A DNA stretch of 64,000 bases from Actinokineospora sp. (GTDB taxonomy: Bacteria; Actinomycetota; Actinomycetes; Mycobacteriales; Pseudonocardiaceae): NCBI GenBank assembly GCA_052390155.1, contig JBQTHF010000034.1; one strand, written 5' to 3'. The notes below the pieces were generated by a model. It saw nothing but the letters and a program-made list of their open reading frames with translations, searched no databases and was not told where the DNA came from. The position numbers were made by a program, and so were the translations under genes. The stretch's first letter is position 1, and each line of letters begins with the position of its first letter. This document shows, piece after piece, positions 1-22,631 of this stretch.

Positions 1-20
1 AGATCCACTGCCCGACTGTG

Positions 21-60
21 AAGCACGGGGCCGGGGACGACATCCTCCGGCCCCGTGCTT
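21..60 (+). terminator. GC-rich stem-loop (attenuator/terminator type) just upstream of lanB
   Basis: Perfect 14-bp inverted repeat AAGCACGGGGCCGG / CCGGCCCCGTGCTT with a 12-nt loop. It begins at a frame-1 TGA (19-21). The position matches the attenuator hairpins often found between lanA and lanB (inference). Confidence 0.5.
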
Positions 61-61
61 G

Positions 62-92
62 CCCACCCACCCACCCACCCACCCACCCACCC
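62..92. repeat. (CCCA)7CCC tetranucleotide microsatellite, (GGGT)7 on the minus strand
   Basis: Seven perfect CCCA units plus CCC, read directly. It lies between the hairpin and the AGGAGGA Shine-Dalgarno (104-110) of lanB. Confidence 0.95.
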
Positions 93-114
93 GCTCGACG
101 GCTAGGAGGACTGG

Positions 115-3100
115 ATGCGTGCCAGCGACAGAAAGCCGCTCTACCGACACGTTGACGTCGCACTGCTGCGGGCCGCAGCAGCGCCGCTGACCAACACCCT
201 GAACCGTTGGCCCGACCTGACTGACATCGGCGGGTGCAGACACTGGCTGGAAGAGATGTGGTCCCAGCCCGATCTCGCCGACGCCGTGCGCCAAGCCAGC
301 CCGTCGCTGGGCGAGGGCGTTGACGCCATCCGCGCCGGGAATACCCTGGGCGACAAGCAGATCCGTAGCGCCACCCTGTCCACAGCGCGGTATCTGTTGC
401 GCAGCATCGGCCGCCCCACCCCGTTCGGCCTGTTCGCCGGAGTGGCCCCGGTGACCTTGGCAGGAACGGCCCAGGCGGACTGGGGCGAGGACCATCGGGG
501 GGTGGCCCGCGTCAACACCGGGTGGTTGGCCGACATCATCACGCGCGCTGAACGGTGCCCGGACTGCTGGAACGGCTCCACGTGGTGGTCACCGACCTCG
601 CGGTCCGCCGTGGTCCTCGACTCGAAGTGCGGCAAGGGCCGAACCGGGTGACCATCCGCTACACCCGCGCGGTCGCGGCCGTCCGCGACATGGCCGCGAC
701 CCCGGTCCGGTTCGGGACCTTGATCGACACGCTGACCGGGGACTTCACCGCCGACCGGTCAACGGTGCGGGACATGCTCACCGAACTCGTCCGGCAGGGC
801 TACCTGCTGACCAACCTGCGCGCTCCGTTCACCGTCACCGACCCGTTCGCCCATCTGATGGACCGACTACACGACGCCGACGCCGAGAGCCTGCCGACGA
901 TCGCGACCCTGGTAGGCGACCTCGACGCGATCCTGGCCAAACTACGCCACCACAACCATGAAACGACCACCCGAACCGAGCAGAGCCATCTCCGCGCGAC
1001 GGTCACCCGCCGGATGCGGGAACTCTCGCCGGAGGGGCGCACCCCGCTGGCGGTGGACCTGCTGCTCGACTGCGCGATTCGGCTACCCCACCAGGTCGCC
1101 CGGGAGATGGAGCGAGCCGCCGGCGCGCTGCTGCGCCTGACGCGGCAGCCGACCGGCGAGGCAACCTGGCGCGACTACCACTCGGCCTTCGTCGACAAGT
1201 ACGGCACGTCCACGGCGGTGCCGCTGGCCGAAGTCCTCGACCCGGACGCCGGCCTGGGGTATCCGGCCGGGTATCGCGGGAGCGTGCTGCCCGCGCCGAC
1301 ACCAGGGATCTCCGAGCGCGACGAGCGGCTGCTGGCGCTGGCCTGGCAGGCGATGGCTGACGGCACCCGCGAGATCGTCCTGACCGACGACGTTGTCGGC
1401 GAGTTGACCGACGAGACGTTCGACGAGCGCTACATCCCGCCGCACGTGGAGTTGTCCGCCCGCGTTCACGCCGCCACCGCGCAGGCGCTTGCGCGTGGCG
1501 ATTTCCTGCTCACCATCGCGCCCGCCCGCTCCGCAGGCACCCTCACCTCGCGGTTCACGCCGACGGCCACCGGGTCCGGCCTGGCGCAGGCGTACCGGGC
1601 GCTGCCCGCCGCCACCGATGGGGCGCTGCGGGTGCAGATGTCCTTCGGGCCGCTGTACCCGCACGCGGAGAACGTCTGCCGCGTCCCGGCCTACCTAGAC
1701 CACGTTCTCCCACTGGGAGAACACCGTGAGTCCGGCGACGAGCACCTGCTCACGATGGATGACCTGGCCATCACCGCGACCCGCGATCGGCTCTATCTGG
1801 TCAGCATCTCGCGTTGCCAAGTCGTTGAGCCGCAGGTGTTCCACGCACTCGCACTGGACAAGCAGCCCCCGCCGATGGCCCGGTTCCTGGCGCATCTGCC
1901 GCGGGCTTTCTCCGCCACCTGGTACCAGTTCGACTGGGGACGGCACCTCCGGTTGCCGTTCCTGCCACGGGTTCGCTACCGGCGGACCGTCCTGTCCCCG
2001 GCGCAGTGGCGGCTTGCCCCCGGCGACATCCCGCCCGGCCAGGCCGGATCCGACGAAGTGCGCCAGGTGCTCGACCGGTGGCGGCAGCGCTGGGGCTGCC
2101 CCGACGTAGTCGAGTTGCGCGACGCGGACCGTACGCTGCGCCTCACCCTCGATGAACCGGCCCACGCCGCACTCCTGCACACCCACCTCAAGCGACACGG
2201 CCAAGCGATCCTCTGTCCGGCCACCCCGGCGGCCGAGTACGGCTGGATCGACGGCCACGCCCACGAGATCGCACTCCCCCTCGTCAGCACCCGGCCCGCG
2301 GCGCCTGACCCACTAAGGGGCCACCTACCCGCCGTGACGAACACCCGCGGGCACCTGCCCGGCACTCTGGACGCCACCTGGATTTCGGCGAAGCTGTTCA
2401 CTCACCCCGAGCGGATGGTCGAGATTGTCACCGAGGCACTTCCCGGCCTGCTGACCACGCTCGACGCGCCCGCGTGCTGGTGGCTGCGTTACCGCAGCCC
2501 GCAGGAGACAGACCACCTGCGGCTGCGGCTGCGCACCACCCCCGGCCGCTACGCTGAGTCCTTGAACGCGGTCGGGGAGTGGGCACAGCGGATGCGGCAG
2601 GCGGGACTTCTCGGGCGGCTGGTGATCGACACCTACTACCCGGAAGTCGGCCGCTACGGGAACGGCGAGGCGATGGACGCCGCGGAGATCGTCTTCACCG
2701 CCGACTCCGCCACCGTGGCCGCCCTGCTGCGGCACCTGCCTGCCACCGACCCGGATCTCGCGCTAGTCGTGGCAAACATGGTGGGCATCGTCCACGGGTT
2801 CTTCGGCGATCCTGCTGAGGCGATGGACTGGCTGGCTGCCCAGCCGGTTCCGACTGCTGCGGCCATCGACCGGGCGGTGACCGATCGAGCGATCCGGCTC
2901 GCCACCGACCCGGCAGGATTGCTGTCGCCGTCCGGCTGGGACGTCGAAATCGGGCGGGCGTGGGAGCACCGGGCCGACGTCCTGGCCGACTACCGCAAGG
3001 CGTTGCCGCCGGAGGCGAACACCGACGTGGTGTTGGAGTCGCTGCTGCACATGCACCACAACCGGGCCGTCGGCATCGACCGGGACAGCGAACGCACGTG

Positions 3101-3164
3101 CCGTCGCCTGGCCCGCCAAGCCGCGCTCACCTGGCGAGCCCGCACCGACGGTGGTGCCCGGTGA
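115..3164 (+). pseudogene. lanB: class I lanthipeptide dehydratase LanB, interrupted by a 1-nt frameshift near 553-557
   Basis: ORF 115-651 has the LanB N-terminus (RYLLRSIGRPTPFGLFAGVAP). ORF 555-3164 continues the same protein in another frame (PGLLERLHVVV...) and ends in a SpaB_C-type elimination domain (WWLRYRSPQETDHLRLRLR, IDTYYPEVGRYG). Joined length is about 1016 aa, normal for LanB. An SD lies 4 nt before ATG 115. Pseudogene status depends on the frameshift being real. Confidence 0.85.
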
Positions 3165-4377
3165 CCTACACCAACCCGCACACGCCGCCGCCTGAGCACG
3201 ATCCCACACCCGGCTGGGGTCAGTCCCTGTCCAACGGGGCCGCCGGAATGGCGCTGCTGCACATCGCCTATGCCCACGCCGGGATCGGCGACTGGGCCAC
3301 CGCCCACCAGTGGGTCAAGGCCATGACCCGCGTCCCCGTGGCCGCCGACCCGGACGCTTGCCTGTACCGGGGCGCTCCGGCAGTCGCGTTCGCGCTGAGC
3401 ACCGCCACCCAACCCGCCTACGCCGGGGTGCTGGCCACCCTGGATCGGCACATCGCCGAGATCACCCGGCACCGGCTGGAACTGGCGCACGAGCGGATCG
3501 ACCGCGCAGAGTTGCCGAAGCTGCGGGAGTTCGACCTGATCAACGGGTTGACCGGCATCGGCGTCTACCTGCTCCAGGCCGGGCACACCGACCTGCTGCA
3601 CGGGGTGCTGGCCTACCTGGCACGGTCACCGTAGACGGCAGCACGGTGCCCGGCTGGTGGACGACCAACGGCCCCGCCGGCCGGCCTGACTCGCGCTGGC
3701 CGGGCGGCCACGCCAATCTGGGTCTGGCCCACGGTGTCAGTGGGCCGTTGATTCTGCTTGCTACCACGATGATTCACGGCGTCACCGTGCCCGGACAGCC
3801 TGAGGCGATCGACCAGGTCGACGCGTTCATCGGGCGCTGGTGCTGCGGCACCCGGACCCGCCCGTGGTGGCCGGGCATGATCTCCGCCCGAGAATGGAGG
3901 ACCGGCACCGTCGATCAGCCCGGCCCGCAGCGGCCGTCTTGGTGCTACGGCACCCCCGGCCTGGCCCGCGCCCGCCAGCTCGCAGCCCTGGCACTGGATC
4001 TGCCGCAGCGCAAGGTGCGGGCGGAGGCGGCGCTAGCCGGATGCGTCACCGACGACACCCAACTCGCCCAACTCGGCGACGACTCGCTCTGCCACGGATG
4101 GGCAGGGCTCGTGCACACCACGGTGCGGGCGGCGGCCGACGCCGGAGGCGACAGCGAACTGGCCCGTGTCGTGCCCGGCCTGGAGCGCCGCTGGCGGCAG
4201 CACCGCACACAGGCCCGTCCGCAACTGTCAGACCGACATGGGATGTTGGAGGGCAGCACGGGCATCGCGCTGGCCCGCCACAGCATCGAGCGCGCCGGTC
4301 CACCCTTCGGGTGGGACGCCTGCCTGCTCACCACCTGGCACAACGAGAAGAATCCGCACATGGAAGGAACCGGATGA
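3161..4377 (+). pseudogene. lanC: lanthipeptide cyclase LanC, interrupted by a 1-nt frameshift near 3617-3622
   Basis: GTG 3161 overlaps the lanB stop (GTGA). The first frame gives GWGQSLSNGAAGMALL and INGLTGIGVYLL and stops at 3634. The second frame continues with VDGSTVPGWW, GLAHGVSGP, SWCYGTPG and LCHGWAG (LanC catalytic/zinc-ligand motifs). About 405 aa when joined. Confidence 0.85.
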
Positions 4378-5582
4378 CCAACGCGACCAGCACCCGCCCC
4401 GAGGACCTGCGCGAGAAGATGGTCCAGCACATCAAGGACGCTGGCCACCTGTACTCCGCGCGCATCGAGCAGGTACTGCGGACAGTTCCCCGGCACCGGT
4501 TCGTGCCCGCCGCGTCCGCCGAGGACGCCTACGCCAACAAGGCCATCACCATCAAGCCCGGCGCAGACCGGCCCGCCAGTTGCATCTCCGTGCCTACGGT
4601 CGTGGCGATGATGCTCGGCCAGCTAGACCCCCAGCCCGGAGACCACGTCCTGGAGATCGGCGCCGGGACCGGCTACAACGCGGCATTGCTGGCCGAACTC
4701 GTCGGTGTCGAGGGCAGCGTCACCACCATCGACATCCACTCCGACGTCACCGCCCACGCCCGCCGCGCCCTCGACGAGACCGGCTACCAGCGGGTTCACG
4801 TGGTCACCGGCGACGGTGCTCTCGGCGACCCCGCATACGCCCCCTACAACAAGATCATCGTCACGGTGGGGCCGTGGGACCTGCCCCCGGCATGGTTCGA
4901 GCAGCTCGCCCCCGGCGGGACCCTCGTGGTCCCGCTGCACTGGCGCGGCCAGGCCCGCAGCGTCGCCTTCACCCGCAAGGACACCCATCTGCGAGCGGAG
5001 AACAGCCAGCTCTGCGGGTTCATCCCCATGATCGGCATCGTCCCCACCGGCGAACAGACCGGTGCCCTCGCCGAGGACGTCGCCCTGCATTGGGACGCTG
5101 ACCAGAACATCGACCCGGCCGCACTGCACGAGGTGTTCACCGGACCCGAGACCACCGTGTGGTCCGGCGCGTCCGTCATCGTCAACGAGCCGTTCGACCA
5201 CATCTGGCTGTGGCTGACCGCCACTGAACCCGGCGCCTGCCGGATCGCCGCCGAAGACGAGGCCATCGAGGCCGGGACCTGCCGCCCCGCGTTCGCCTAC
5301 CGCACCCCGGCCATTGTCGAGGGTGACTCCCTGGCGTACCTCACCAAACCCCGCCCCCTCGACCAGGACGGCGAACGCCGCTACGAACTCGGCGCCACCG
5401 GCCACGGCCCCCACGGCACCGTGCTGGCCGAGCGCCTGGTCGAGCAGATCCGTCGCTGGGACCGCGACCGGGCCGCTCAGCCCGTTATCGCCGCGTACCC
5501 CGCCGACACGGCCGACGCCAGCCTCCTGGCCGGCGGGGTGGTCATCGACAAGCGGAATATCCGGATGGTCGTCTCACCCTGA
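4374..5582 (+). CDS. PIMT-family O-methyltransferase of lanthipeptide clusters (LanS_A / FxLD-system type)
   Basis: ATG 4374 overlaps the lanC stop (ATGA). Intact 402 aa. The N-domain has protein-L-isoaspartate O-methyltransferase motifs (VPRHRFVP, VLEIGAGTGYNAALLA, VVTGDGALG), followed by a C-domain of about 200 aa. Operon position is directly after lanBC. Confidence 0.8.
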   Translation: MTNATSTRPEDLREKMVQHIKDAGHLYSARIEQVLRTVPRHRFVPAASAEDAYANKAITIKPGADRPASCISVPTVVAMMLGQLDPQPGDHVLEIGAGTGYNAALLAELVGVEGSVTTIDIHSDVTAHARRALDETGYQRVHVVTGDGALGDPAYAPYNKIIVTVGPWDLPPAWFEQLAPGGTLVVPLHWRGQARSVAFTRKDTHLRAENSQLCGFIPMIGIVPTGEQTGALAEDVALHWDADQNIDPAALHEVFTGPETTVWSGASVIVNEPFDHIWLWLTATEPGACRIAAEDEAIEAGTCRPAFAYRTPAIVEGDSLAYLTKPRPLDQDGERRYELGATGHGPHGTVLAERLVEQIRRWDRDRAAQPVIAAYPADTADASLLAGGVVIDKRNIRMVVSP

Positions 5583-5599
5583 ACAAGCCATCCCGATGG

Positions 5600-6160
5600 T
5601 CAGCCGGACACCCTTGAGTCAACACCGCCCGGCCCCTCGTGGGCAGGGCGGTGTTGCTGCAGTGCGAGGTTGTTGGCCGCGGGGATAGCCGCGGCTGGTC
5701 TGGTGGATCAGCGTTGACGCGTCATCGGAGTACAGGGTGTCCGACCGCCCCGCGAGGCCGAGGTGGTGGCGCAGGTAGCTGCCGGTTTCCTCCGGTGTCA
5801 TGGGCGGCATCGTGTAGCGCAGTGCGATCCGTTGGTCGAGGGCGGCCAGGGCGCCCATCTTCATGCGCCGCCGCTGGGTGGGCTGGCCGACGAGCAGGCA
5901 GGCGAACGGGCTGGTGGAGTCCATGTCGTGGTTGGTCAGCATCCTGATCGACTCGGGTTGGGAGTGGTCGAGCAGATGAGCCTCGTTCAGCACCGGGACC
6001 GGAGTCCGGCCCCGTTCGACTTTGTTCGGTGGTCAGGGCGTCGGCGGTCTGGGGAACGAGGGTGGCGTGATGGACCAGGGGTTGCCCGCCCAGGGCGGCG
6101 ACGATCTAGTGGTGGATGCCGCGGACCCCGACGGTCGGGTTGGGCAGATAGATCACCGTG
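5600..6160 (-). pseudogene. remnant of a transposition-helper AAA+ ATPase (ExeA/TniB-like)
   Basis: The minus-strand translation reads FTVIYLPNPTVGVRGIHH(TAG)IVAALGGQP...ALTTEQ // ERGRTPVPVLNEAHLLDHSQPESIRMLTNH...LLVGQP...LDQRIALRY...PEETGSYLRHHLGLAG...SRGYPR. This is ExeA/TniB-type architecture. The Walker A part is missing and there is an in-frame TAG (plus-strand CTA at 6106-6108). Frame breaks lie near 6020 and 5690, and Walker B reads NEAH instead of DEAH. No transposase gene is adjacent. Confidence 0.7.
5620..5656. terminator. stem-loop after the methyltransferase gene
   Basis: 11-bp perfect inverted repeat CAACACCGCCC / GGGCGGTGTTG with a 15-nt loop, 38 nt after the stop at 5582. Confidence 0.5.
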
Positions 6161-6311
6161 AAGCGGGAGCTGTCCAATGTGGACAAAGTGGCGCGGATCC
6201 TCACCGTCGACGCCGCCCGACTACCCACACACGCTCACCCGAATGTCGTAGAACACATGTGCGAGGGTAATCAAGTCGATGCCCAGAGTCACTGCCAAGG
6301 AGATAATGAGG

Positions 6312-6572
6312 ATGCCCATCACCGACCCGGTCATGGCCGTGCTGGACAGGCTGCCGCTCGCCGGTTCACAGCGCGGCGCGGCTGAGCCGACCTCGCGCGA
6401 GCGAGGCGGGCCCGCACCGTTCGGCCTACGGTTCGCTGTCACCCCCATGATGCCCTGCGGCAAGCACAATAGGACCTATTACACGGTGACGGTGAAGGAG
6501 GCTGACCGAGGTCAGCCAGGCGGCAAGGTCGTGACCATCCAGGACGACGTGCAGAAGGAGAGGGAGGACTGA
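6312..6572 (+). CDS. candidate graspetide (ATP-grasp-modified RiPP) precursor peptide
   Basis: AAGGAG lies 9 nt before ATG 6312; in-frame alternatives are 6279, 6306 and 6333. The C-terminal part is APFGLRFAVTPMMPCGKHNRTYYTVTVKEADRGQPGGKVVTIQDDVQKERED. It has a leader-like PFGLRF motif, a Thr-rich strand, a Gly/Pro turn and an acidic strand. The stop is 2 nt before the ATP-grasp start. Confidence 0.65.
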   Translation: MPITDPVMAVLDRLPLAGSQRGAAEPTSRERGGPAPFGLRFAVTPMMPCGKHNRTYYTVTVKEADRGQPGGKVVTIQDDVQKERED

Positions 6573-6574
6573 CC

Positions 6575-7350
6575 GTGGCTGTCCTGGCCGTCACCGCGCA
6601 CGACGATGACACTGCCACCAGGGTCTGTCGGGCGCTTGCGGCGCGGGGACAGGACTGCGCGAGGATGGATCTGGGCGACTTCCCCGAGAGGCTTTCGTTC
6701 ACCGCGTCCGGCCCTAGCCCTGTCTGGGCCGGATGGCTGTCCGATGGGACGCGCGACCTAATCTCTGGCGGACATCACGGCCGTCTACTGGCGACGGCCC
6801 ACCAGCTTCCGGCTTCCCGCCCAACTGGATGAGCAGGAACGGCGGTTCGCCTTGGCAGAGGCCCGGCAGGGCCTCGGTGGGTTGGTCTCCTGCCTGCCCG
6901 TTCCGTTTCGTCAACCAGGTGAAGCTGGTCTACGCGACCCTGGTCGGAGCGGGCGAGATCGACGACGCCGCCATTGCGTTGAGCCCCTGCCAGTTTCAGG
7001 TGTTCATTCCCAAGAGTCGAGACATTCGCCTGGTCGCGGTGGGGAGGGAGTGTTTCGCCGTCGCGATCCACGCGGGCTCGGACAAGTCCTATGTTGACTG
7101 GAGAGCCGACTACCCCGCACTGTCCTACGCGGCGGTTCAGACGCCCAACCACATCGCCGCGGCCGTCGCCGCCTACCTCAAGTGGTTCGGGTTGTCGTTC
7201 GGGTGCTTCGACTTCACCGTGTCAGCCGACACCGGGGAGTGGGTATTCCTTGAGTGCGGCCCGAATGCCCAATGGGGATGGTTGGAGCACGAGACGGGCC
7301 TGCCCATGGCCGACGCCATTGCCCGCAGTCTCACCGGAGACACCGCATGA
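6575..7350 (+). pseudogene. ATP-grasp RiPP maturase (graspetide ligase), two frameshifts and possibly an internal deletion
   Basis: GTG 6575 sits behind GGAGAGGGAGGA. Three frames must be joined. The first is VLAVTAHDDDTATRVCRALAARGQDCARMDLGDFP...WLSDGTRDL. The second, from about 6765, is LADITAVYWRRPTSFRLPAQLDEQERRFALAEARQGLGGLVSCLP. The third, from about 6900, is FVNQ...FQVFIPKSRDIRLVAVG...DWRADY...FGCFDFTV...WVFLECGPNAQWGWLE. The total is about 258 aa, shorter than I expect for this family. Confidence 0.75.
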
Positions 7351-8565
7351 CGGACGCCGACTGGGAGCCCAGGCTCGCCGCCCTCGTCGCCGCCCTCATC
7401 GAGGGTGGCCATCTGCGAAGCAGGGAATGGATGAAGGCGTTCGCCGCCACGCCCCGGCACCTGTTCACTCCTGAGGTCATCACCGTCACCCCACTCGGCT
7501 ACCGGACGCTTTCGGCCGCCGACCCCGGCGTCCGCCAGGAGTGGCTGTCGGCGGTCTACTCTGACGAATCCCTTGTCACGCAAGACAAACCTCATGCAGC
7601 CGGGTACCTGCTGCCCGCCGGGCAGCCGCTACGAGTCCCCACCAGTTCGTCGACGATGCCCTCCTTGATGGCCCGGATGCTGGAGGTCCTCGACATCGGC
7701 GACGACATGCGGGTCCTGGAGGTCGGCACCGGCACTGGCTACAACGCGGCCTTGCTGTCGCACCGCCTCGGTGACCGCCAGGTCGTCTCCATCGACATCG
7801 ACCCCTACCTGGTCGACCTGGCAGCCCAACCCCTCGCCCACCTCGCCCACACCCCAACGCTGCTCGCGGGCGACGGCGTGTACGGCGCCGCCGAGCACGG
7901 CCCTTACGACCGGATCATCGTACGCCACCGCCGCCGTCCCCGAGATCCCGCTGGCCTGGGTGCAGCAGCTCAAGCCCGGCGGGAAGATCCTGGCCAACCT
8001 GCGTGGTGACCTCGCAGGCGGAACCCTCTGCCTGTTGACCAAAGAAGGGGCCGATGACGAGGTCATCGGCCCGATCCTGCCCATCGGCGGGTACTTCATG
8101 TGGTTGCGATCCGATCCGTCCGACCCGCACCGGCCCCACGAGCACACCCCGGCCGCACAGCGCGGCACGACCAGCCGCAGCACAACCAGCCTCAACCCGG
8201 CCCAAGTCCCTGTCGACGAGGGATTCCTGTTTCTGCTCCAACTACAACTCCACGCGGCACAATCCCTCTGGCGAGGACAGGTGCACGACCCGGCTACCCG
8301 CGACCAGCAGGACGCGGTCATCGCCACCGCCGCCGATGGCTCCCGTGCCGAAGCACTTACCCACCCTGAGCCAGACGGCTCCTATCGAGTCGTCCAGTCC
8401 GGGCCACGTCGCATCTGGGATACCGTCGAGGCCACTCACCGGCTGTGGCGGCACCTCGGCCGACCTACACCCGACAAGTTCGGCGTCGTCGCCAACAGCG
8501 ACACCCAATTCGCTTGGTTCCGCAACGACGACAACTGGCGCCGCTGGCCCCTGCCCCTCGTCTGA
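7347..8565 (+). pseudogene. PIMT-family O-methyltransferase of the ATP-grasp RiPP system, frameshift near 7917-7922
   Basis: ATG 7347 overlaps the ATP-grasp stop (ATGA). The N-part has TPRHLFTP, VLEVGTGTGYNAALLS and LLAGDGVYG...YDRII. The protein continues in another frame with ATAAVPEIPLAWVQQLKPGGKILANL, plus a C-domain of about 200 aa. About 405 aa when joined. Confidence 0.8.
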
Positions 8566-8657
8566 CCACCGCAGGGCGTTCGAGACGCCGCGAAGCGTGC
8601 CGTCGTGCACGACGCATAGCGCGTAAGACTGTCTCTTGTGGACGGTCGGCCGTGCGG

Positions 8658-9587
<930 letters not shown>

Positions 9588-10880
9588 CTAGGACGATCCT
9601 CCGAGAGTCGTGGCCTGGCGCAACCCGGCGCGCAGACCCAGCAGGACGATGAGCAGCGTCAGGGCGGGCCCGACGATCTGCGCGACGGCGGCCGCGAGTA
9701 CCGCGTCGAGGGGAATCAGCACGATCGCCAACGTCACGACCGACCCGATGGTCCACCCCAGGGTGACCACCTGGTCGCGGTGCAGCGCCACCAGCGCGGG
9801 CTGTACGGCGTAGGCCGCGACCAGCACCACCGTGCTGAACGCCAGCATCGCCATGGTCGACGTGTCCAGCTCGGCGGCGGTGTTCAGGAATGTCCGCAGC
9901 ACCCACGGCCCCAGCAGCACGAAGATCACCGCGCCGAGCATCCCCACCCCGGCTACCCCGGCCAGCGTCAGCCGGACCCGGCGCGCCACGACACCCATCT
10001 CCCCGCGCGTGACGGCCGCGGTGAGGCTGGGCAGCAGCATGGTCTGGATCGGGAAGAACAGCAGCAGCGGTATCCGGGCCACCACCGCCGCCTGCCCGAA
10101 CGCCAGCGCGACCGCGCTGTCCTCGGCCAGCCGCGAGGTGACCGCCAGCGGCGCGAGGTTGGGCAGCAACTGGGCGAACAGTGTCGCCGTCGCCAGTGCC
10201 GCGAGCCCCTTGCCGATGTGCGGCTGCTCGGCGGCCGCGGCCACCGGCTCGCTGGCAGGCGCTGTGGAACCCTTGCGCAGCAAGACAACCCCGACCAGCA
10301 TCGCGACGACCGAGCCCGCCAGGTACACCGCGCCGTAGGCCCACGCGGTCGACGCGCCCGCCACCGCCAGCGCCACGCAGAACACCAGCCGCGCGACCCC
10401 CTCGACCGCGAGCGTGACCGCGTAGCCGCCGAACCGTTGCAGGCCGCCGAGCATCCCGCGCACCAGGTGCACGCCCGCCCCGATCACGGGCGTGGCCAAG
10501 ACCTCGACGAACAGCACCCAGTCGCCGTGCAGCGTCGCGCCGACCAGGATCGGGCTGAGCAGCAGCAGGATGGCCATCACCGCCGCGACCAGCCACAGCC
10601 CGCCCCGGCGGGTCTGGGCGATCGCCGAGCCCAGCGGCCGCCCGGCGGCGACCGCGCCGCTGACCGACCGGCTCGTCACCTGCTCCAGCGCGTAGAAGAT
10701 GCCCGGGCCGACGACGTTGACCAGGAAGTAGAACGCGATGGCGAGGTTCGCCTCGGCGCTGGAGAGGGTGCGGCCGGTCAGCGCGACGAAGACGTAGCCC
10801 GCGATCCCGAACAGGATCAGCCCCGCCGCCATCTGGGCGGGCGGCCCGAAGACCCGCCGCAGCCGTGTCGAGGTCAGCAC
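9588..10880 (-). CDS. polytopic membrane protein, polysaccharide flippase-like (MOP/Wzx family)
   Basis: 430 aa and highly hydrophobic, with about 12-14 predicted helices. Composition and length resemble Wzx-type oligosaccharide flippases. It is in an operon with the epimerase. Confidence 0.5.
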   Translation of the reverse strand: MLTSTRLRRVFGPPAQMAAGLILFGIAGYVFVALTGRTLSSAEANLAIAFYFLVNVVGPGIFYALEQVTSRSVSGAVAAGRPLGSAIAQTRRGGLWLVAAVMAILLLLSPILVGATLHGDWVLFVEVLATPVIGAGVHLVRGMLGGLQRFGGYAVTLAVEGVARLVFCVALAVAGASTAWAYGAVYLAGSVVAMLVGVVLLRKGSTAPASEPVAAAAEQPHIGKGLAALATATLFAQLLPNLAPLAVTSRLAEDSAVALAFGQAAVVARIPLLLFFPIQTMLLPSLTAAVTRGEMGVVARRVRLTLAGVAGVGMLGAVIFVLLGPWVLRTFLNTAAELDTSTMAMLAFSTVVLVAAYAVQPALVALHRDQVVTLGWTIGSVVTLAIVLIPLDAVLAAAVAQIVGPALTLLIVLLGLRAGLRQATTLGGSS

Positions 10881-11148
10881 CCGGCCAACTGTAGCCGGCG
10901 CGGTCGTGCCGCCGGTGGCTGCGGTCGGCCGTGGCCAACCGGGTACCCTGGGTCGTCCCCGAGCCCGTGGAAGTTGGCGGGGACGGCCGTGCGCGACGAC
11001 GTCCGCATCCGGTCCTCGACCACGAGATGGCGCTCACGTTGCCTCTGGAGGACAACGAGGTATGGCAGGTAGCACTCGCACCACGAGTGGCACTCCGAAG
11101 ACCCGCAACCAGCCGAAGTCGGAGGGTCGGGTGGAGACTTCGCCCGCC

Positions 11149-12999
11149 ATGGACCCGACCGGCAGGATGGTGGCCCAGCGCGGCCTCTTCCGCGGGCCGG
11201 ACCCGGTGTGCCCGGACGAGCTGTACGCCACCATCGTGCGGGGCACCGCCGACCGCGAGCGGCAGCGGCTGGTCGTAGGCCCGCACTCGACGGTCAGCAC
11301 CGACACCTACTTCGGCCGGTTCCCCGCCGCCTACTGGCAGCGCTGGACCGTGGTGGACGAGGTCGCGGTCGAGCTGGTGCTGTCCGGCTCCGCGCGGCTC
11401 GCGCTGATCGCGTCCGACTTCAACGGCGAGACCCGGCCCGAAGCGGTCCGGGTTGTCGAGGACGCCCAGAGCCAGACCGTCCGGCTGACAGCCAAGCTCG
11501 ACAAGTTCTTCGACGGCGGCTCGCTCTGGCTCGACCTCACCACCGAGGGCACCGAGCTGGTCGTGGAGCAGTTGCGGTGGACGGTGCCTGCGCCCGAGCG
11601 CGTCCGCCAGACCTCGGTCGTCATCTGCACGTTCAACCGGGCCGACGACTGCGTCCGCACCCTCGGCGCGCTCGCCGCCGACCAGGACGCGCTCACCGTG
11701 CTGGAGACGGTGCACGTCGTGGACCAGGGCACCGACACGGTCGAGTCCCGCCCCGGCTTCCCGGACCTGGAGAAGGCGCTCGACGGCCGGTTGCGCTACC
11801 TGCGCCAGCCCAACCTCGGCGGCGCGGGCGGCTTCGGCCGCGGCATGTACGAGGTCGTCAAGGCCGGTGACGCCAACGTCCTGCTGATGGACGACGACGT
11901 GCTGTGCGAGCCCGAGATCGCCGTGCGGCTCAGCGCGTTCGCCAACCGCACCGGCAAGCCGACCCTGGTCGGCGGCCAGATGCTGCGGCTGCTGCACCCC
12001 ACCAAGCTCATCGCGGGCGCCGAGTACGCCGACTTCGCGCACCTGCAGCCGGGCGCGGTGGTCATGAACGCCCTGGACGACGTCGACCTGCTCGCCGAGG
12101 CTCTCGACGAGGACGGCGAGCCGACCGGCAAGCCCAACCGCGGCGACCGCAGGGTCGACGCCGACTACAACGCCTGGTGGTCGTGCCTGATCCCGAACGA
12201 GGTGGCCAGGGAGCTGGGCCTGCCGCTGCCGCTGTTCTTCCAGTGGGACGACGTCGAGTACGGCTACCGGGCGCGCGCCCGCGGCTACGCGACGGTCACG
12301 CTGCCCGGCGCCGGACTGTGGCACGCGGACTTCGACTGGAAGGACGCGGACAAGTGGAACGAGTACTTCGCGGTGCGCAACGCGATGATCGTCTCCGCCC
12401 TGCACTCCGCGTTCCCGCCCAAGCAGGTCGCCCGGGTGCTGGTGGCGCGGGTCGTGCGGGCGCTGCTGAGCATGCAGTACGGCCTGGCCGCGACGCTGAT
12501 CACGGGCGCTGAGGACTTCCTGGTCGGCCCGTCGGTCCTGGCCGACGGCGGCAAGCGGGCGGCGGCGGAGATCCGCCGGATCCGCGCCATGTACCCAGAC
12601 ACCGTGGCGCACCCGATCGCCGGGCTGGCCGACATCGGCCTCGACCACGTGCCGATGGTGCAGGCCGCGCCCGAGCCGAAGCTGCACCGGCTGGTGTTGC
12701 TCAAGCGGCTGCTGCACCTCTCGCTCGGCAAGGCGAACTACGACATCGGGGCCATCCCCGCCGACGACTCGTCCTGGTGGCACGTGTCGCAGTTCCAGCG
12801 GGCCGTCGTCACCGACGCCGCCCAGGACAGCGTCCGGGTCCGGGTGCGCGACCGGGCGATGATGGTCGAACTGGGCAAGCGGCTGGCGGTCGTTGCTCGC
12901 AGGCTGCTGGCCGAGGGGCCCCGCCTCCAGCAGGAGTACCGGGCGGCGGTCCCGGAGCTGATCAGCGAGGAAAACTGGAAGCGGCTCTACGGTCTGTAG
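11149..12999 (+). CDS. GlfT2-like galactofuranosyltransferase paralog (diverged copy)
   Basis: Collinear with the canonical GlfT2 downstream: FGRFPAAYWQRWT, VVICTFNR, LGGAGGFGRGMY, LLMDDDV, YNAWWSCLIP, PLPLFFQWDDVEYGYRA, TLPGAGLWHADF, YFAVRN. The start is ATG 11149 (MDPTGR...) or ATG 11062. Confidence 0.75.
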   Translation: MDPTGRMVAQRGLFRGPDPVCPDELYATIVRGTADRERQRLVVGPHSTVSTDTYFGRFPAAYWQRWTVVDEVAVELVLSGSARLALIASDFNGETRPEAVRVVEDAQSQTVRLTAKLDKFFDGGSLWLDLTTEGTELVVEQLRWTVPAPERVRQTSVVICTFNRADDCVRTLGALAADQDALTVLETVHVVDQGTDTVESRPGFPDLEKALDGRLRYLRQPNLGGAGGFGRGMYEVVKAGDANVLLMDDDVLCEPEIAVRLSAFANRTGKPTLVGGQMLRLLHPTKLIAGAEYADFAHLQPGAVVMNALDDVDLLAEALDEDGEPTGKPNRGDRRVDADYNAWWSCLIPNEVARELGLPLPLFFQWDDVEYGYRARARGYATVTLPGAGLWHADFDWKDADKWNEYFAVRNAMIVSALHSAFPPKQVARVLVARVVRALLSMQYGLAATLITGAEDFLVGPSVLADGGKRAAAEIRRIRAMYPDTVAHPIAGLADIGLDHVPMVQAAPEPKLHRLVLLKRLLHLSLGKANYDIGAIPADDSSWWHVSQFQRAVVTDAAQDSVRVRVRDRAMMVELGKRLAVVARRLLAEGPRLQQEYRAAVPELISEENWKRLYGL

Positions 13000-13047
13000 T
13001 GGCCGCCCGCGCGACCCGCGGGCGGGCTCGGGGGGCCGACGGAGTTA

Positions 13048-13070
13048 GCTCGGGAAGATCGTTCCCGAGT
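13048..13070 (+). terminator. small hairpin in the spacer between the two GlfT2 genes
   Basis: CTCGGGAA-GATCG-TTCCCGAG (8-bp stem). A second GC hairpin, GCCCGCG-CGACC-CGCGGGC, lies at about 13007-13025. There is no clear U-tract. Confidence 0.3.
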
Positions 13071-13107
13071 CGATCACGAGCCTGGACGGCTCGTTGGAGG
13101 GACAGAC

Positions 13108-15006
13108 GTGACCGAGCAGAGGGACCCGACCGGTCCTGCCGTCGATGTGCACCGGGTGTTGCAGCGCGTCATCCTGCCCAGGGATGCCGACCCGCTCGAC
13201 GTGCGACCGCTCTACCTCGACGAGCCGGAGAACGTGCACAGCCACGTCTCGTCCCGCCGGTCGGTGACCGTGCCGACCTCGGCCAAGGTGTCCTTCGCCG
13301 CCTACTTCAACGCCTTTCCGGCGAGCTACTGGAAGCGCTGGACCACGGTCGAGCGCGTCGTGCTGCGGATCAACGTGCGCGGCGGCGGCCGGATCGACGT
13401 CTACCGGTCCAAGCCGAACGGCGACCAGATCCACCTGCAGGGTGCCCCGGTCCGCACGGGCGACGACTGGGACACCGTCGAGTTCACGATCAGCCTCGCG
13501 CCGTTCGAGGACGGCGGCTGGATCTGGTTCGACGTGTTCACCGACGACTCCACCCTGGAGGTCGCCGACGCCGCGTGGCTGTCCGAGACGCCCCTGCCGC
13601 CGCAGCAGCTGGCCATCGGCACCACGACCTTCAACCGTGTCGACGACTGCGTGTCCTCGCTGCTCGCGCTGAGCGAGGACCCGGCCGTGCTCGCCGTGAT
13701 CAGCCGCGTCTACGTGGCCGACCAGGGCTCGCAGAAGATCAGCGGCCACCCGCGCTACGCCGAGGCGGCCGAGCGGCTCGGCGACCGGCTGCAGGTCATC
13801 GAGCAGGACAACCTCGGCGGCTCGGGCGGGTTCACCCGGGCGCTGTACGAGTCGATCGAGCACACCGACGTCGACCAGGTGCTGCTGCTCGACGACGACA
13901 TCGCGCTGGAGCCGGACAGCATCCTGCGGGCCAACGCGTTCGCGCGCGCGTCGGCCAAGCCGGTCGTCGTCGGCGGCCACATGCTCAACCTGCAGGCCAA
14001 GTCCCGGCTGCACAGCATGGGCGAGATAGTCGACCTCAGCGCGTGCGTGTGGCGCGCCGCGCCCGACGCCGTGGTCGACCACGACTTCGGCGCCAAGTCG
14101 CTGCGCGAGACCAAGCAGGCGCACCGGCGCATCAACGCCACCTACAACGGCTGGTGGATGTGCCTGTTCCCGCGCGCGGTCGTGGAGAAGTGCGGGCTGC
14201 CGCTGCCGCTGTTCATCAAGTGGGACGACGCCGAGTACTCGCTGCGCGCCCTGGCCAACGGCTTCCCGACCGTCACCCTGCCCGGTGCCGCGGTGTGGCA
14301 CATGCCGTGGACGGACAAGAACGACACCACCGACTGGACTGTCTACTTCCACCAGCGCAACCGGCTGATCATGGCGGCGCTGCACAGCCCGTACGACGTC
14401 CGCAAGACGCTGCTGCTGCAGGGCCTGCGGACCTCCGTGCGCAGGCTGCTGTCCATGGAGTACTCGACCGTCGCGATCGAGCAGAAGGCCATCGAGGACT
14501 TCCTGGCAGGCCCCGGCAGGCTGTTCGAGCTGCTGCGCACCGGCTTGCCGGAGGTGCAGCAGGTGCGCAAGAAGTACACCGACGCGCAGGTCCTGCCCTC
14601 GGCCCAGGAGTTCCCGCCGCCGACCTTCGACATGGTCAAGGCCGAGCAGATGCTGCGCCCGCCCGTGCACCCGGTGAAGATCGCCGCCCGGGCCTCGCAG
14701 GCGCTCGTGCACAACCTGCGCGCGCCCGCGCAGGCCGCGGGGGAGCGCCCGCAGGTCAACATCCCGGCGGGCAGCGCGCTGTGGTTCCTGCTGGGCAACC
14801 TGGACAGCGCGACGGTGTCCAACGCCGACGGCAGCGGTGTGGCCTTCCGCAGGCGCGACCCGAAGGTCTTCCGCGAGCTGTCGGCGCGGGCCATGCAGAA
14901 CTACCGCAAGCTGGTCCGCGAGTGGCCCCAGTTGCGCGAGGAGTACCGGGCCGCGCTACCGGAGCTGACCTCGGTCGAGTCGTGGCGCAAGGTCTTCGAG
15001 AACTGA
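13108..15006 (+). CDS. glfT2: bifunctional UDP-galactofuranosyltransferase GlfT2
   Basis: 632 aa with GGAGGGA before GTG 13108. There are long stretches that I recall as near-identical to M. tuberculosis Rv3808c: SFAAYFNAFPASYWKRWT, FEDGGWIWFD, NLGGSGGF, YNGWWMCLFPR, PLPLFIKWDDAEY, TLPGAAVWHM, YFHQRNRL, EYSTVAIEQKAIEDFLAGP. Confidence 0.92.
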   Translation: MTEQRDPTGPAVDVHRVLQRVILPRDADPLDVRPLYLDEPENVHSHVSSRRSVTVPTSAKVSFAAYFNAFPASYWKRWTTVERVVLRINVRGGGRIDVYRSKPNGDQIHLQGAPVRTGDDWDTVEFTISLAPFEDGGWIWFDVFTDDSTLEVADAAWLSETPLPPQQLAIGTTTFNRVDDCVSSLLALSEDPAVLAVISRVYVADQGSQKISGHPRYAEAAERLGDRLQVIEQDNLGGSGGFTRALYESIEHTDVDQVLLLDDDIALEPDSILRANAFARASAKPVVVGGHMLNLQAKSRLHSMGEIVDLSACVWRAAPDAVVDHDFGAKSLRETKQAHRRINATYNGWWMCLFPRAVVEKCGLPLPLFIKWDDAEYSLRALANGFPTVTLPGAAVWHMPWTDKNDTTDWTVYFHQRNRLIMAALHSPYDVRKTLLLQGLRTSVRRLLSMEYSTVAIEQKAIEDFLAGPGRLFELLRTGLPEVQQVRKKYTDAQVLPSAQEFPPPTFDMVKAEQMLRPPVHPVKIAARASQALVHNLRAPAQAAGERPQVNIPAGSALWFLLGNLDSATVSNADGSGVAFRRRDPKVFRELSARAMQNYRKLVREWPQLREEYRAALPELTSVESWRKVFEN

Positions 15007-15013
15007 CCCGGAC

Positions 15014-15060
15014 AACACACTGGGCCCGTCCCCTTCGCGGGGGGACGGGCCCAGTGTGTT
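15014..15060. terminator. bidirectional terminator hairpin between glfT2 and cspA
   Basis: AACACACTGGGCCCGTCCCC-TTCGCGG-GGGGACGGGCCCAGTGTGTT, a stem of about 20 bp between the convergent stops at 15006 and 15073. Confidence 0.8.
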
Positions 15061-15072
15061 ACTTATCGCAGA

Positions 15073-15276
15073 TCAGACGGCCTTGACGCCGGTGGCCTGC
15101 GGGCCTTTCTGGCCCTGGCCGATCTCGAACTCCACGCGCTGGTTCTCGTCCAGGCTCTTGAAGCCCGAGCCCTGGATCTCCGAGTAGTGCACGAAGACGT
15201 CGGCGCCGCCGTCGTCCGGCTGGATGAAGCCGAAGCCCTTCTCGGAGTTGAACCACTTCACTGTGCCCTGTGCCAC
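15073..15276 (-). CDS. cspA: cold-shock protein (CspA family)
   Basis: 67 aa, [34 protein letters not shown], with the RNP1/RNP2 motifs. Confidence 0.97.
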
Positions 15277-15473
15277 GTCTATCTCCTCAACAGGTACCGA
15301 TTAACGAACGTGCGCGGGTGCACACGCGTGGTCGGTTTCAGACGGCGACTTCTCCGGCTTGACCTGGAGGAAAACCGCGCGCCCGCAACGATCTCTTGCG
15401 AGCGTGATCTAACACGTACTCAAGAAAATTTACGACCGTTGACAGTCAACCACACACTGGTTCCCTCGCGCAC

Positions 15474-15911
15474 GTGCCAACTGTGGCGGGTCGGGAGGCC
15501 CGCCACACCGGGTCGGGGGTTGCGGTGGTCCACCGGCTGGGAGACGCTTTCGGAGTGAGCGAGCTCGCCAGTGACCAGCCCGAGTCCATCGCACTGCACC
15601 TCGACGAAGCCGGAGTCTCCGTCGACCTGCCCCGTCCGGCCAATGATCGCGACCAAGTCCAAGGTGTGCCCTACCGCCCGGTCGAGTTCCGCGACGACGA
15701 TCTGCCCGCCGCTCTGGAGCGGGCCGCGTCCTGGCTGCGCAGCACGCAGGAATGGCTCGGAGAACCCGTGGACGTCATCGCCATCCATCTCGACTACGAC
15801 GACGGCGACGGCGCGCCGTACTACGACGTCAAGCTGCTGTGCAACGAGGAAGACCTCGCGGGCGCCCCGATCGCGATGCGCGAGCACGCCTCGAAGGCTG
15901 TGAGCGGCTAG
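15474..15911 (+). CDS. hypothetical protein (start uncertain)
   Basis: ORF with GC3-rich codon usage in its 3' two thirds. Its stop overlaps the start of the acyltransferase gene. No recognisable domain. GTG 15556 is an alternative start. Confidence 0.4.
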   Translation: MPTVAGREARHTGSGVAVVHRLGDAFGVSELASDQPESIALHLDEAGVSVDLPRPANDRDQVQGVPYRPVEFRDDDLPAALERAASWLRSTQEWLGEPVDVIAIHLDYDDGDGAPYYDVKLLCNEEDLAGAPIAMREHASKAVSG

Positions 15912-16648: not shown

Positions 16649-16667
16649 CCCGGCCGGGTCAGTACAG

Positions 16668-18776: not shown

Positions 18777-18891
18777 CTGTGTAGCCGTCTCCAAGTACCG
18801 TCCACCCCTACACAGCGTCCGTGGCCATCCCGTGCGGTCGAGAAGTGTACGAGACGCGCGCCGTCCGACCTGCACTAACGCGCGATCCGGG

Positions 18892-19701: not shown

Positions 19702-19776
19702 CTCTGCATCCTCCCTGACGCGAGATGCGCGCGAAGGGTGTTCCCCGTTACCGTACGGCCGATTCGAGGGGGAGAA

Positions 19777-20328: not shown

Positions 20329-20337
20329 GTTCGAGTC

Positions 20338-21312: not shown

Positions 21313-22614
<1,302 letters not shown>

Positions 22615-22631
22615 AAACGCCGGACCCCCCG

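What the first reader, a model, noticed from the sequence alone, without database searches (positions are those of the whole stretch)
1..8565. Two different RiPP chemistries, each with its own PIMT-type O-methyltransferase, fused into one 8.5-kb island
Seen: 115-5582 encodes LanB, LanC and a 402-aa methyltransferase with protein-L-isoaspartate O-methyltransferase motifs (VLEIGAGTGYNAALLA). 6312-8565 encodes a small peptide, an ATP-grasp ligase and a second methyltransferase of about 405 aa with the same architecture (VLEVGTGTGYNAALLS). Established, from memory: the first layout is that of FxLD-type class I lanthipeptide clusters (olv-type). There the methyltransferase esterifies an Asp, giving a succinimide and then isoAsp. 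The second layout is that of aspartimidylated graspetides (fuscimiditide/amycolimiditide type). Inference: I know of no described locus in which both PIMT-dependent RiPP pathways are juxtaposed. Here only a degraded transposition ATPase separates them. This could be a mobile composite island, a record of methyltransferase exchange between RiPP classes, or a place where the two methyltransferases cross-talk on each other's substrates.
Basis: partly seen in the sequence, partly recalled or inferred. Interest (0 to 1): 0.8.

Follow-up and report, generated by a model that had tools for sequence, protein, structure and literature searches.

The report
Two adjacent dead RiPP gene clusters
The region holds remnants of two known peptide-antibiotic-type gene clusters side by side, but indels have broken almost every gene, so it is a decaying relic and not a working two-pathway island.

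Summary
Window 115-5582 is an FxLD/olv-type class I lanthipeptide ("lanthimiditide") module. Window 6312-8565 is a graspimiditide module. Each has its own PIMT-like methyltransferase, and a relic of a transposon ExeA-type ATPase lies between them.

- lanB has a 1-nt deletion.
- lanC has a 13-nt deletion.
- The graspetide precursor has a +1/-1 indel pair that erases the conserved Asp-Gly aspartimide site.
- The ATP-grasp gene has two +1 frameshifts and a 183-nt deletion.
- The second methyltransferase has a 4-nt insertion.

Only the lanthipeptide-type methyltransferase (4374-5582) is intact. Twenty-seven genes elsewhere in the window show no split domains, so poor sequence quality is unlikely.

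The two methyltransferases fall cleanly into their own families. They are no more alike than cross-locus pairs, so there is no sign of exchange between them. Cross-talk cannot occur here.

The juxtaposition is not unique. Two intact examples (L038, L115) exist with different gene orders and incongruent relationships. That is about 2% of the loci surveyed.

Verdict: a degraded member of known families, of low interest in itself. The recurrent co-location elsewhere is a modest lead.

The parts
1..20 (+). 3' flank of lanA. Bases 1-2 ('AG') appear to be the end of the lanA stop codon. The precursor gene itself lies just upstream of the window.
   Evidence: orthologous loci end their FxLD precursor gene (...CASACV[ST][GD]GV*) immediately before sequence homologous to window 1-20. 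L010 reads GTG TAG ATCCGCC against window AGATCCACTGCC.
21..60 (+). Perfect 14-bp stem with a 12-nt loop between lanA and lanB, presumed to be an attenuator or terminator. It is conserved in orthologues.
   Evidence: I18; one search shows equivalent hairpins in L002, L003, L005 and L006.
62..92 (+). (CCCA)x7.8 microsatellite in the lanA-lanB spacer.
   Evidence: Orthologues carry one or two copies only.
115..3164 (+). lanB (class I lanthipeptide dehydratase) pseudogene. A 1-nt deletion between 563 and 564 shifts reading from frame 1 to frame 3.
   Evidence: PF04738 profile 2-105 in ORF 115-651, profile 101-649 plus PF14028 in ORF 555-3164; orthologues are in one frame; alignment shows the missing base.
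3161..4377 (+). lanC (cyclase) pseudogene. A 13-nt deletion between 3625 and 3626 leads to a premature TAG at 3632-3634.
   Evidence: PF05147 profile 4-117 in frame 2 and 149-347 in frame 1..
4374..5582 (+). lanSA-type PIMT-like O-methyltransferase (MT1). It is 402 aa and is the only intact enzyme ORF in the island.
   Evidence: TIGR04364 437 bits (cut-off 320), profile 3-393 of 394; 81-84% identical to full-length orthologues; dN/dS 0.23-0.34 and 4 unique changes at invariant sites, both within the range of its orthologues.
5620..5656 (.). 16-bp-arm hairpin about 40 nt after the MT1 stop codon, at the end of the FxLD-module homology.
   Evidence: I15; homology to all FxLD loci ends at 5582-5589.
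5660..6170 (-). Relic of an ExeA-family (AAA_22) transposon ATPase. It corresponds to about residues 73-242 of a 270-aa protein. It is 5'-truncated, has at least 2 frameshifts, and its DDE transposase partner is absent.
   Evidence: TIGR03015 positions 129-233; frames; PF13401; 73.5-78% identical to intact 'ExeA family protein' genes, that of H4 lying next to a DDE transposase.
6312..6572 (+). Graspimiditide precursor gene (86 aa). The leader motif PFGLRFAV and the Thr-rich and Asp/Glu-rich stems are kept. The loop is garbled by a +1 (G6504) and a -1 (6520/6521), and the conserved Asp-Gly is lost.
   Evidence: Orthologues have ...KEATQVSRDG[RK]..., while the window has ...KEADRGQPGGK....

The role of the loop DG comes from 10.1101/2023.06.21.545981.
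6575..7350 (+). ATP-grasp peptide maturase pseudogene, with +1 near 6760-6762, +1 near 6905-6907, and a 183-nt (61-codon) deletion at 6917/6918.
   Evidence: TIGR04187 profile 175-311 only; tblastn with the intact L052 enzyme hits three frames, and residues 112-173 are missing; the 183-nt offset is seen against L051, L052, L055 and L056.
7347..8565 (+). Graspimiditide-type PIMT-like methyltransferase (MT2) pseudogene, with a 4-nt insertion at 7920-7923. The C-terminal WRHLGRP (WXXXGXP) motif is present.
   Evidence: TIGR04188 profile 1-180 in frame 3 and 180-360 in frame 1.; the repaired protein scores 342 bits over profile 1-360 of 363. Motif definition from PMC13001092.

Best explanation
Window 1-8572 is a decaying genomic island. 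It is made of two independently acquired, compact RiPP modules placed head-to-tail on the plus strand. It sits next to the core arabinogalactan cell-wall genes of a Pseudonocardiaceae-like actinomycete.

Module 1 is (lanA)-lanB-lanC-lanSA, an FxLD/olv-type 'lanthimiditide' cluster. Module 2 is precursor-ATP-grasp-methyltransferase, a group-13 graspetide or 'graspimiditide' cluster. A truncated ExeA-type transposon ATPase lies between them.

In their intact state, the core enzymes first cyclise the precursor. LanB and LanC make thioether rings; the ATP-grasp enzyme makes Thr-Asp esters. The module's own PIMT-like methyltransferase then methylates one loop Asp, which collapses to an aspartimide and then isoAsp.

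Here that chemistry cannot run. lanB, lanC, the ATP-grasp gene, MT2 and the graspetide core are all inactivated by indels. Neither peptide is predicted to be made.

Module 2 has 6 lesions in 2.3 kb and the ATPase relic has at least 2. Module 1 has 2 lesions in 5.5 kb. I infer that module 2 and the ATPase died earlier and module 1 more recently.

MT1 is still an open, orthologue-like ORF. With 2 lesions in 4.3 kb of lanBC, finding zero in 1.2 kb is expected by chance (P about 0.57). Its intactness therefore does not show that it is retained by selection.

Shown directly: the homologies, the lesions, and the absence of shared flanks with other loci. Inferred: the order of events, the loss of function, and horizontal origin.
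For: - Family assignments.
- Lesions defined against intact orthologues.
- Lesion sizes of -13, -183 and +4 nt are not typical sequencing errors, and none of the 1-nt indels lies in a long homopolymer.
- 27 genes in the remaining 55 kb give undivided Pfam matches, nearly all over the whole profile length.
- GC3 is about 0.80-0.90 in the island against 0.93-0.99 in the flanking genes.
- Module boundaries are sharp. FxLD homology ends at 5582-5589, and graspimiditide homology spans 6257-8572.
- The same modules occur alone in other genomes with unrelated neighbours, and none shares the window's flanking genes.
- Synonymous divergence of the FxLD methyltransferase between different genera is only 0.12-0.6, consistent with horizontal spread.
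- Decay is common in relatives. There are orphan methyltransferases (L001, L004, L007, L009), loci lacking lanC (L016, L021, L022), fragmentary loci (L014, L015, L027, L044) and damaged graspimiditide loci (L048, L051, L138, L139).
- Methyltransferases require cyclised substrates (PMC13001092).
Against: - No reads are available, so the 1-nt indels cannot be verified independently.
- Repaired lanB, MT1 and MT2 show no raised dN/dS, and MT1 and MT2 show no excess of unique substitutions. Inactivation must therefore be recent relative to the nearest available relatives, or some lesions could be artefacts.
- The lanA gene and everything upstream lie outside the window, so the state of the precursor is unknown.
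- Horizontal origin is inferred from composition, patchy distribution and low dS. No insertion site was identified, and no terminal repeats or target duplications were found.
Confidence: 0.85

Rival explanations
1. The frameshifts are sequencing or assembly artefacts. The island then encodes two functional PIMT-dependent RiPP pathways, possibly with cross-talk between the two methyltransferases.
For: All lesions are indels, and there are no nonsense substitutions. The repaired genes look well conserved. The source contig and its reads could not be examined.
Against: Eight or more indels fall within 7.5 kb, against none detected in 27 genes elsewhere in the window. Three lesions are -13, -183 and +4 nt. 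The 1-nt indels are not in long homopolymers. Independent, different lesions occur in related loci from other samples. Even if the genes were intact, published methyltransferases are highly substrate-specific (PMC13001092).
Confidence: 0.06
2. MT1 is retained by selection as a stand-alone peptide or protein aspartyl methyltransferase (pamtide-like, or acting on another substrate) after its lanthipeptide partners were lost.
For: MT1 is the only intact enzyme. Its dN/dS (0.23-0.34) and its count of unique substitutions match its orthologues. Intact orthologues at 81-84% identity stand alone, without lanB or lanC, in L001, L004, L007 and L009. About 70% of this methyltransferase clade has no recognisable RiPP partner (PMC10787088).
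Against: Zero lesions in 1.2 kb is expected by chance given the lanBC lesion density. The locus survey was seeded with MT1, so loci that kept lanBC but lost the methyltransferase could not be seen. No candidate small precursor was identified next to MT1. Polar effects of the upstream frameshifts may reduce its expression.
Confidence: 0.2
3. The two modules were inherited together as one ancient composite island, shared with L038 and L115, and were not assembled independently.
For: Three loci carry both module types within 10 kb (window, L038, L115). This is more than uniform random placement predicts.
Against: Gene order and orientation differ in all three (tandem, convergent, divergent). Relationships are incongruent. 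For LanB, the window groups with L115 (41% against 27-28%). For the ATP-grasp and graspetide methyltransferase, L038 groups with L115 (45-46% against 35-39%). The closest relatives of each window module occur alone.
Confidence: 0.05

Closest known systems
OlvA/OlvB/OlvC/OlvSA cluster of Streptomyces olivaceus NRRL B-3009 (FxLD-type class I lanthipeptide, 'lanthimiditide'; summarised in PMC13001092)
   Same: The gene order is the same: lanA-lanB-lanC-methyltransferase. MT1 passes the FxLD-system methyltransferase model (TIGR04364). The closest orthologous loci encode precursors with the FxLD leader motif and the TxDGC core (e.g. ...FALD...NTDDGCDPTCASACV).
   Different: lanB and lanC are frameshifted here. 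lanA lies outside the window. No product is expected, because OlvSA-type enzymes act only on LanB/LanC-cyclised peptide.
Graspimiditides / group-13 graspetides: amycolimiditide (Amycolatopsis), fuscimiditide, albusimiditide, SsfA (PMC13001092; 10.1101/2023.06.21.545981)
   Same: It has the three-gene layout of precursor, ATP-grasp and PIMT-like methyltransferase, with 4-nt overlapping stop/start codons at the ATP-grasp-methyltransferase junction. The leader has a PFGLRF motif and there is a conserved His before a Thr-rich stem. The C-terminal stem is rich in Asp and Glu. The methyltransferase carries WXXXGXP. Intact orthologous trios exist in L052, L055 and L056.
   Different: All three genes are damaged. 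The loop Asp-Gly, which is the predicted aspartimide site, is erased. The ATP-grasp gene lacks 61 central codons and is out of frame twice. The methyltransferase carries a 4-nt insertion.
Imiditides / type I pamtides (precursor plus PAMT only; PMC10787088, 10.1101/2023.04.07.536058)
   Same: What survives in module 1 is a PAMT-clade methyltransferase with no working core enzyme. This resembles the orphan or two-gene situation.
   Different: MT1 belongs to the lanthipeptide-associated family. No Gly/Pro/Asp-rich or zinc-ribbon precursor was seen beside it, and the lanB and lanC remnants show that the orphan state is secondary.
Transposon modules of actinomycete plasmids: HTH protein, DDE transposase and ExeA-family AAA ATPase (e.g. 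NZ_CP108209.1)
   Same: The spacer fragment is 73.5-78% identical to such ExeA-family ATPases.
   Different: Only about 170 of 270 residues remain, with frameshifts. The transposase and the element ends are absent.

Membership tests
FxLD/olv-type class I lanthipeptide (lanthimiditide) cluster | LanB dehydratase homology (PF04738 N-terminal plus PF14028 C-terminal domains) | tested here: met
   PF04738 at 99.9 and 542 bits in two ORFs; PF14028 at 147 bits.
FxLD/olv-type class I lanthipeptide (lanthimiditide) cluster | Intact, translatable lanB and lanC genes | tested here: not met
   A 1-nt deletion at 563/564. A 13-nt deletion at 3625/3626 with a premature stop. Orthologues are in a single frame.
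FxLD/olv-type class I lanthipeptide (lanthimiditide) cluster | LanSA-type PIMT-like methyltransferase with C-terminal domain (TIGR04364 above cut-off) | tested here: met
   437 bits against a cut-off of 320, profile 3-393 of 394. Housekeeping PIMT models score below their cut-offs.
FxLD/olv-type class I lanthipeptide (lanthimiditide) cluster | Precursor with FxLD leader motif and TxDGC core | not testable with these tools
   lanA lies immediately upstream of window position 1. The source contig could not be retrieved. Eight orthologous loci have such a precursor; that of L002, the one scored, passes TIGR04363 (34.5 bits, cut-off 30).
Graspimiditide (group-13 graspetide with aspartimide) | Precursor with conserved leader and Thr-rich and Asp/Glu-rich stems | tested here: met
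   the alignment with L052, L055 and L056 precursors shows PFGLRFAV, KH..TYYTVTV and IQDDVQKERED. TIGR04186 gives no hit for this subfamily, even for an intact orthologue.
Graspimiditide (group-13 graspetide with aspartimide) | Conserved Asp-Xaa (here Asp-Gly) in the loop, the aspartimidylation site | tested here: not met
   orthologues have [RKQ]DG[RKT], while the window has PGGK because of a +1/-1 indel pair.
Graspimiditide (group-13 graspetide with aspartimide) | Full-length ATP-grasp peptide maturase (TIGR04187) | tested here: not met
   only profile 175-311 of 312 matches (156 bits, cut-off 350). There are two frameshifts and a 183-nt deletion. The intact L052 enzyme scores 354 bits.
Graspimiditide (group-13 graspetide with aspartimide) | Graspetide-system PIMT-like methyltransferase (TIGR04188) with WXXXGXP | tested here: inconclusive
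   TIGR04188 is the best family, and after removal of the 4-nt insertion the match covers profile 1-360 of 363. The score of 342 bits is below the cut-off of 380, but the intact L115 enzyme also scores 342. The ORF as it stands is frameshifted. The WRHLGRP motif is present.
Housekeeping protein-L-isoaspartate O-methyltransferase (Pcm/PIMT) | Scores above the curated cut-off of a pimt equivalog model and is about 210 aa without a C-terminal domain | tested here: not met
   MT1 scores 136 bits on TIGR00080 (cut-off 159) and 168 on NF001453 (cut-off 188). Both methyltransferases are about 400 aa with an extra C-terminal domain.
Composite or hybrid RiPP pathway with shared or exchanged methyltransferase | The two methyltransferases of one locus are closer to each other than to methyltransferases of the other class elsewhere | tested here: not met
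   within-locus identity is 30-37% and cross-locus identity is 31-38%.

The most novel reading that the evidence does not exclude
Lanthimiditide and graspimiditide clusters may co-localise non-randomly in actinomycete genomes. I found three independent juxtapositions (this window, L038 and L115), with different gene orders and incongruent phylogenies. Such neighbourhoods could be where PIMT-like methyltransferase genes were historically passed between RiPP classes, or where the two products are co-regulated or act together. The window would be a decayed example. L038 and L115 are intact loci in which methyltransferase cross-reactivity could be tested.
Probability: 0.15. Interest if true: 0.5.

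Novelty: new member of a known kind. Interest (0 to 1): 0.22.

Why it matters
As it stands, the locus is a pseudogenised example of two well-described RiPP families. It should not be counted as a producer in genome mining. Automated tools that score domain hits would probably call two clusters here.

It is a clear case of how quickly compact RiPP modules decay after acquisition. It also shows that the PIMT-like methyltransferase can be left as an orphan, which bears on the many unassigned methyltransferases of this clade.

The more useful by-product is the pair of intact loci, L038 and L115.

Tried and rejected
1. I tried to retrieve the source contig upstream of position 1 through the window's own ATP-grasp fragment (P0001). 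It is not on record, so lanA could not be read.

2. The first protein search, with the ATP-grasp fragment, returned only short, damaged homologues. This briefly suggested a conserved mini-protein, or a clade in which the ligase is always lost. I rejected that reading. The methyltransferase search found intact three-gene clusters at 71-79% identity. The short hits carry different lesions. The word-indexed search seems to have favoured fragments.

3. I looked for relaxed selection with pairwise dN/dS and with counts of unique substitutions at invariant sites. There is no signal for lanB, MT1 or MT2. This is uninformative about function and says only that the decay is recent.

4. A repeat search for IS ends or target-site duplications around either module found nothing convincing.

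5. I searched for shared flanking genes between the window and all 136 loci then held. There are none.

6. A PDB sequence search with an intact orthologous precursor gave no match to the fuscimiditide or amycolimiditide entries. No RiPP-type PIMT structure was found by sequence.

7. Gene conversion between the two methyltransferases: the only shared DNA is a 61-nt stretch at 82% identity over the SAM-binding motif (D2), and protein identity is 30%. Rejected.
Full report
**Observation.** The window is high-GC DNA (about 0.70). The closest relatives of its genes are in the Pseudonocardiaceae. They also show coding frames that switch in mid-gene.

Pfam and NCBIfam scans quantify this:
- The LanB N-terminal domain profile is split between ORF 115-651 (profile 2-105) and ORF 555-3164 (profile 101-649, plus the C-terminal domain).
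- The LanC profile is split between frame 2 (profile 4-117) and frame 1 (profile 149-347).
- The second methyltransferase is split at profile position 180 of TIGR04188.
- The ATP-grasp ORF matches only positions 175-311 of the 312-position TIGR04187 model.
- Only the first methyltransferase (4374-5582, 402 aa) is whole. It scores 437 bits on the FxLD-system methyltransferase model, against a cut-off of 320.

**Lesions in module 1.** A scan of one genome per species with MT1 returned 47 loci. In eight of them I checked that lanB and lanC are each in one continuous frame. Alignments place a 1-nt deletion in the window's lanB between 563 and 564. They place a 13-nt deletion in lanC between 3625 and 3626, followed by a stop at 3632-3634.

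Upstream of lanB these loci encode an FxLD precursor with a TxDGC core, for example MSAPTIV...DPFALDV...GNTDDGCDPTCASACVTGGV. That of L002, the one I scored, passes TIGR04363. The window begins immediately after the corresponding stop codon. lanA is therefore just outside the window and its state is unknown. A conserved hairpin (21-60) and a window-specific (CCCA)x7.8 repeat (62-92) lie in the lanA-lanB spacer.

**Lesions in module 2.** Protein searches and context look-ups found intact three-gene clusters at 71-79% methyltransferase identity: L052-L054, L055 (Amycolatopsis minnesotensis) and L056. Each has a precursor of 71-89 aa, an ATP-grasp enzyme of 315-321 aa and a methyltransferase of 404-405 aa. 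Measured against them, the window shows the following:
- The precursor starts at 6312 (86 aa) and keeps the PFGLRFAV leader motif and both stems.
- An inserted G at 6504 and a deleted A between 6520 and 6521 rewrite the loop from ...TQVSRDG... to ...DRGQPGG.... This removes the conserved Asp-Gly. In characterised graspimiditides that dipeptide is the aspartimide site (10.1101/2023.06.21.545981; PMC13001092).
- The ATP-grasp gene reads in three frames, with +1 near 6760 and +1 near 6905. It lacks 183 nt, which is residues 112-173 of the L052 enzyme, at 6917/6918.
- MT2 has a 4-nt insertion at 7920-7923. With those four bases removed it is a 404-aa protein. It matches TIGR04188 over positions 1-360 of 363 at 342 bits, the same score as an intact relative, and it carries the WXXXGXP motif.

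**The spacer.** Between the modules, on the minus strand, lie about 170 residues of an ExeA-family AAA ATPase (PF13401). It has frameshifts and lacks its N-terminus. Intact homologues at 73.5-78% identity are annotated on actinomycete plasmids as ExeA family proteins; in the one whose neighbourhood I examined (H4, Kitasatospora) the gene sits directly after a DDE transposase gene. The description 'degraded transposition ATPase' is fair.

**Artefact or biology?** I cannot see the reads. Several points argue against poor sequence quality:
- At least eight indels fall in about 7.5 kb, while 27 genes tested across the other 55 kb give undivided Pfam matches, nearly all over the whole profile length.
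- Three lesions are -13, -183 and +4 nt.
- The single-base indels are not in long homopolymers.
- Related loci from unrelated samples carry their own, different lesions (L048, L051, L138, L139).

Repaired lanB, MT1 and MT2 show ordinary dN/dS (0.23-0.34), and MT1 and MT2 show ordinary numbers of unique substitutions. The inactivation is therefore recent relative to the nearest relatives available.

**Origin.** Homology to FxLD loci ends sharply at the MT1 stop codon (5582-5589). Homology to graspimiditide loci spans 6257-8572. From 8658 onward the genes are core cell-wall genes: an epimerase, two GlfT2 paralogues, Glf and UbiA. Their GC3 is 0.93-0.99, against about 0.80-0.90 in the island.

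None of the loci held at that point shares the window's flanking genes. The FxLD methyltransferase differs by only 0.12-0.6 synonymous substitutions per site between different genera, including Frankia.

I read this as two compact modules acquired horizontally and separately, with a transposon remnant between them, followed by decay. Module 2 and the ATPase carry more lesions per kb than module 1, so they probably died first.

- Mobile composite island: partly supported, as above, though no element ends were found.
- Methyltransferase exchange: not supported. Each methyltransferase sits in its own family by margins of more than 200 bits. The two methyltransferases of one locus are no more similar (30-37%) than methyltransferases of different classes from different loci (31-38%).
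Characterised enzymes of both classes modify only the cyclised peptide (PMC13001092), and neither cyclisation system is functional.

**Uniqueness.** Among the 47 FxLD-centred loci (about 673 kb of flanks), L038, a Pseudonocardiaceae MAG, also has a full graspimiditide trio. It lies about 5 kb away on the opposite strand. IS1182 transposase fragments and extra methyltransferase fragments lie nearby.

Among 45 graspimiditide-type metagenomic loci (about 300 kb of flanks), L115 has methyltransferase-lanA-lanB-lanC in divergent orientation, about 3 kb from an intact graspimiditide trio. All of its parts were confirmed by NCBIfam.

Orientation differs in all three cases. The relationships are also incongruent. 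For LanB, the window groups with L115. For the ATP-grasp enzyme and graspetide methyltransferase, L038 groups with L115. The juxtaposition has therefore arisen more than once.

As a rough guide, assume uniform random placement in an 8-Mb genome that always carries the other cluster. That predicts at most 0.08 and 0.04 such hits in the two surveys. One was seen in each. Biosynthetic clusters are known to bunch in variable regions, however, so this excess is only suggestive.

I found no mention of co-located lanthimiditide and graspimiditide clusters in the main texts of the relevant papers.

**Verdict.** The locus is a degraded member of two known RiPP families.

Noticed in passing
window 62-92: A perfect (CCCA)x7.8 tetranucleotide repeat sits in the lanA-lanB spacer. 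Orthologous loci have only one or two CCCA/CCCG units there.
   Followed up: partly
L038 1-21206 and L115 1-12000: These are two apparently intact loci that carry both an FxLD lanthipeptide cluster and a graspimiditide cluster, each with its own PIMT-like methyltransferase, 3-6 kb apart. The orientation is convergent in L038 and divergent in L115. They are candidates for testing methyltransferase cross-reactivity.
   Followed up: yes
L001, L004, L007, L009, L023 (methyltransferase at about 10001-11200 or at a contig edge): Intact FxLD-type methyltransferases stand alone without lanB or lanC: four at 81-83% protein identity to MT1 (L001, L004, L007, L009) and one at 63% (L023). L001 keeps a 50-aa LanC tail just upstream. 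Streptoalloteichus tenebrarius has two such copies at contig ends, plus a third, truncated copy beside lanBC (L039).
   Followed up: partly
L014, L015, L016, L021, L022, L027, L028, L044: Many relatives of the FxLD module are partly deleted. lanC is missing with lanB abutting the methyltransferase in L016, L021 and L022. Only fragments of lanB or lanC remain in L014, L015, L027 and L044. In L028 (Frankia torreyi) the methyltransferase is split by an insertion of about 8.6 kb.
   Followed up: no
L001-L011 methyltransferase genes: Synonymous divergence of the FxLD methyltransferase between different genera is very low: 0.116 for Actinophytocola against Actinoalloteichus, and about 0.5-0.6 against Frankia. 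This points to recent horizontal spread of the module.
   Followed up: partly
L139 236-2089; L048 9300-11400; L051 6900-8867; L138: Close relatives of the window's graspimiditide module are damaged in different ways.
- L139 keeps an intact precursor and methyltransferase, but its ATP-grasp gene is reduced to 126 aa by an in-frame deletion.
- L048 and L051 have lesions in all three genes.
- L138 has a 5'-truncated ligase.
   Followed up: partly
L038 862-1377 and 12362-13300: L038 carries extra FxLD-type methyltransferase fragments. One copy is 5'-truncated (312 aa, profile 86-394) and sits directly beside an IS1182 transposase. Another copy is frameshifted and also sits near a transposase fragment.
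   Followed up: no
window 4647-4707 and 7713-7773: A 61-nt stretch is 82% identical between the two methyltransferase genes. It covers the SAM-binding motif (VLE[IV]G[AT]GTGYNAALL). It is the only notable DNA similarity between them and does not indicate gene conversion.
   Followed up: yes
window 8658-25068: Immediately right of the island lies a core arabinogalactan-type cell-wall gene set. It includes an NAD-dependent epimerase, two tandem GlfT2 paralogues (10906-12999 and 13108-15006), UDP-galactopyranose mutase, a UbiA-family prenyltransferase and a short-chain dehydrogenase. Two tandem M28/PA-domain peptidase paralogues lie at 32715-36093.
   Followed up: no
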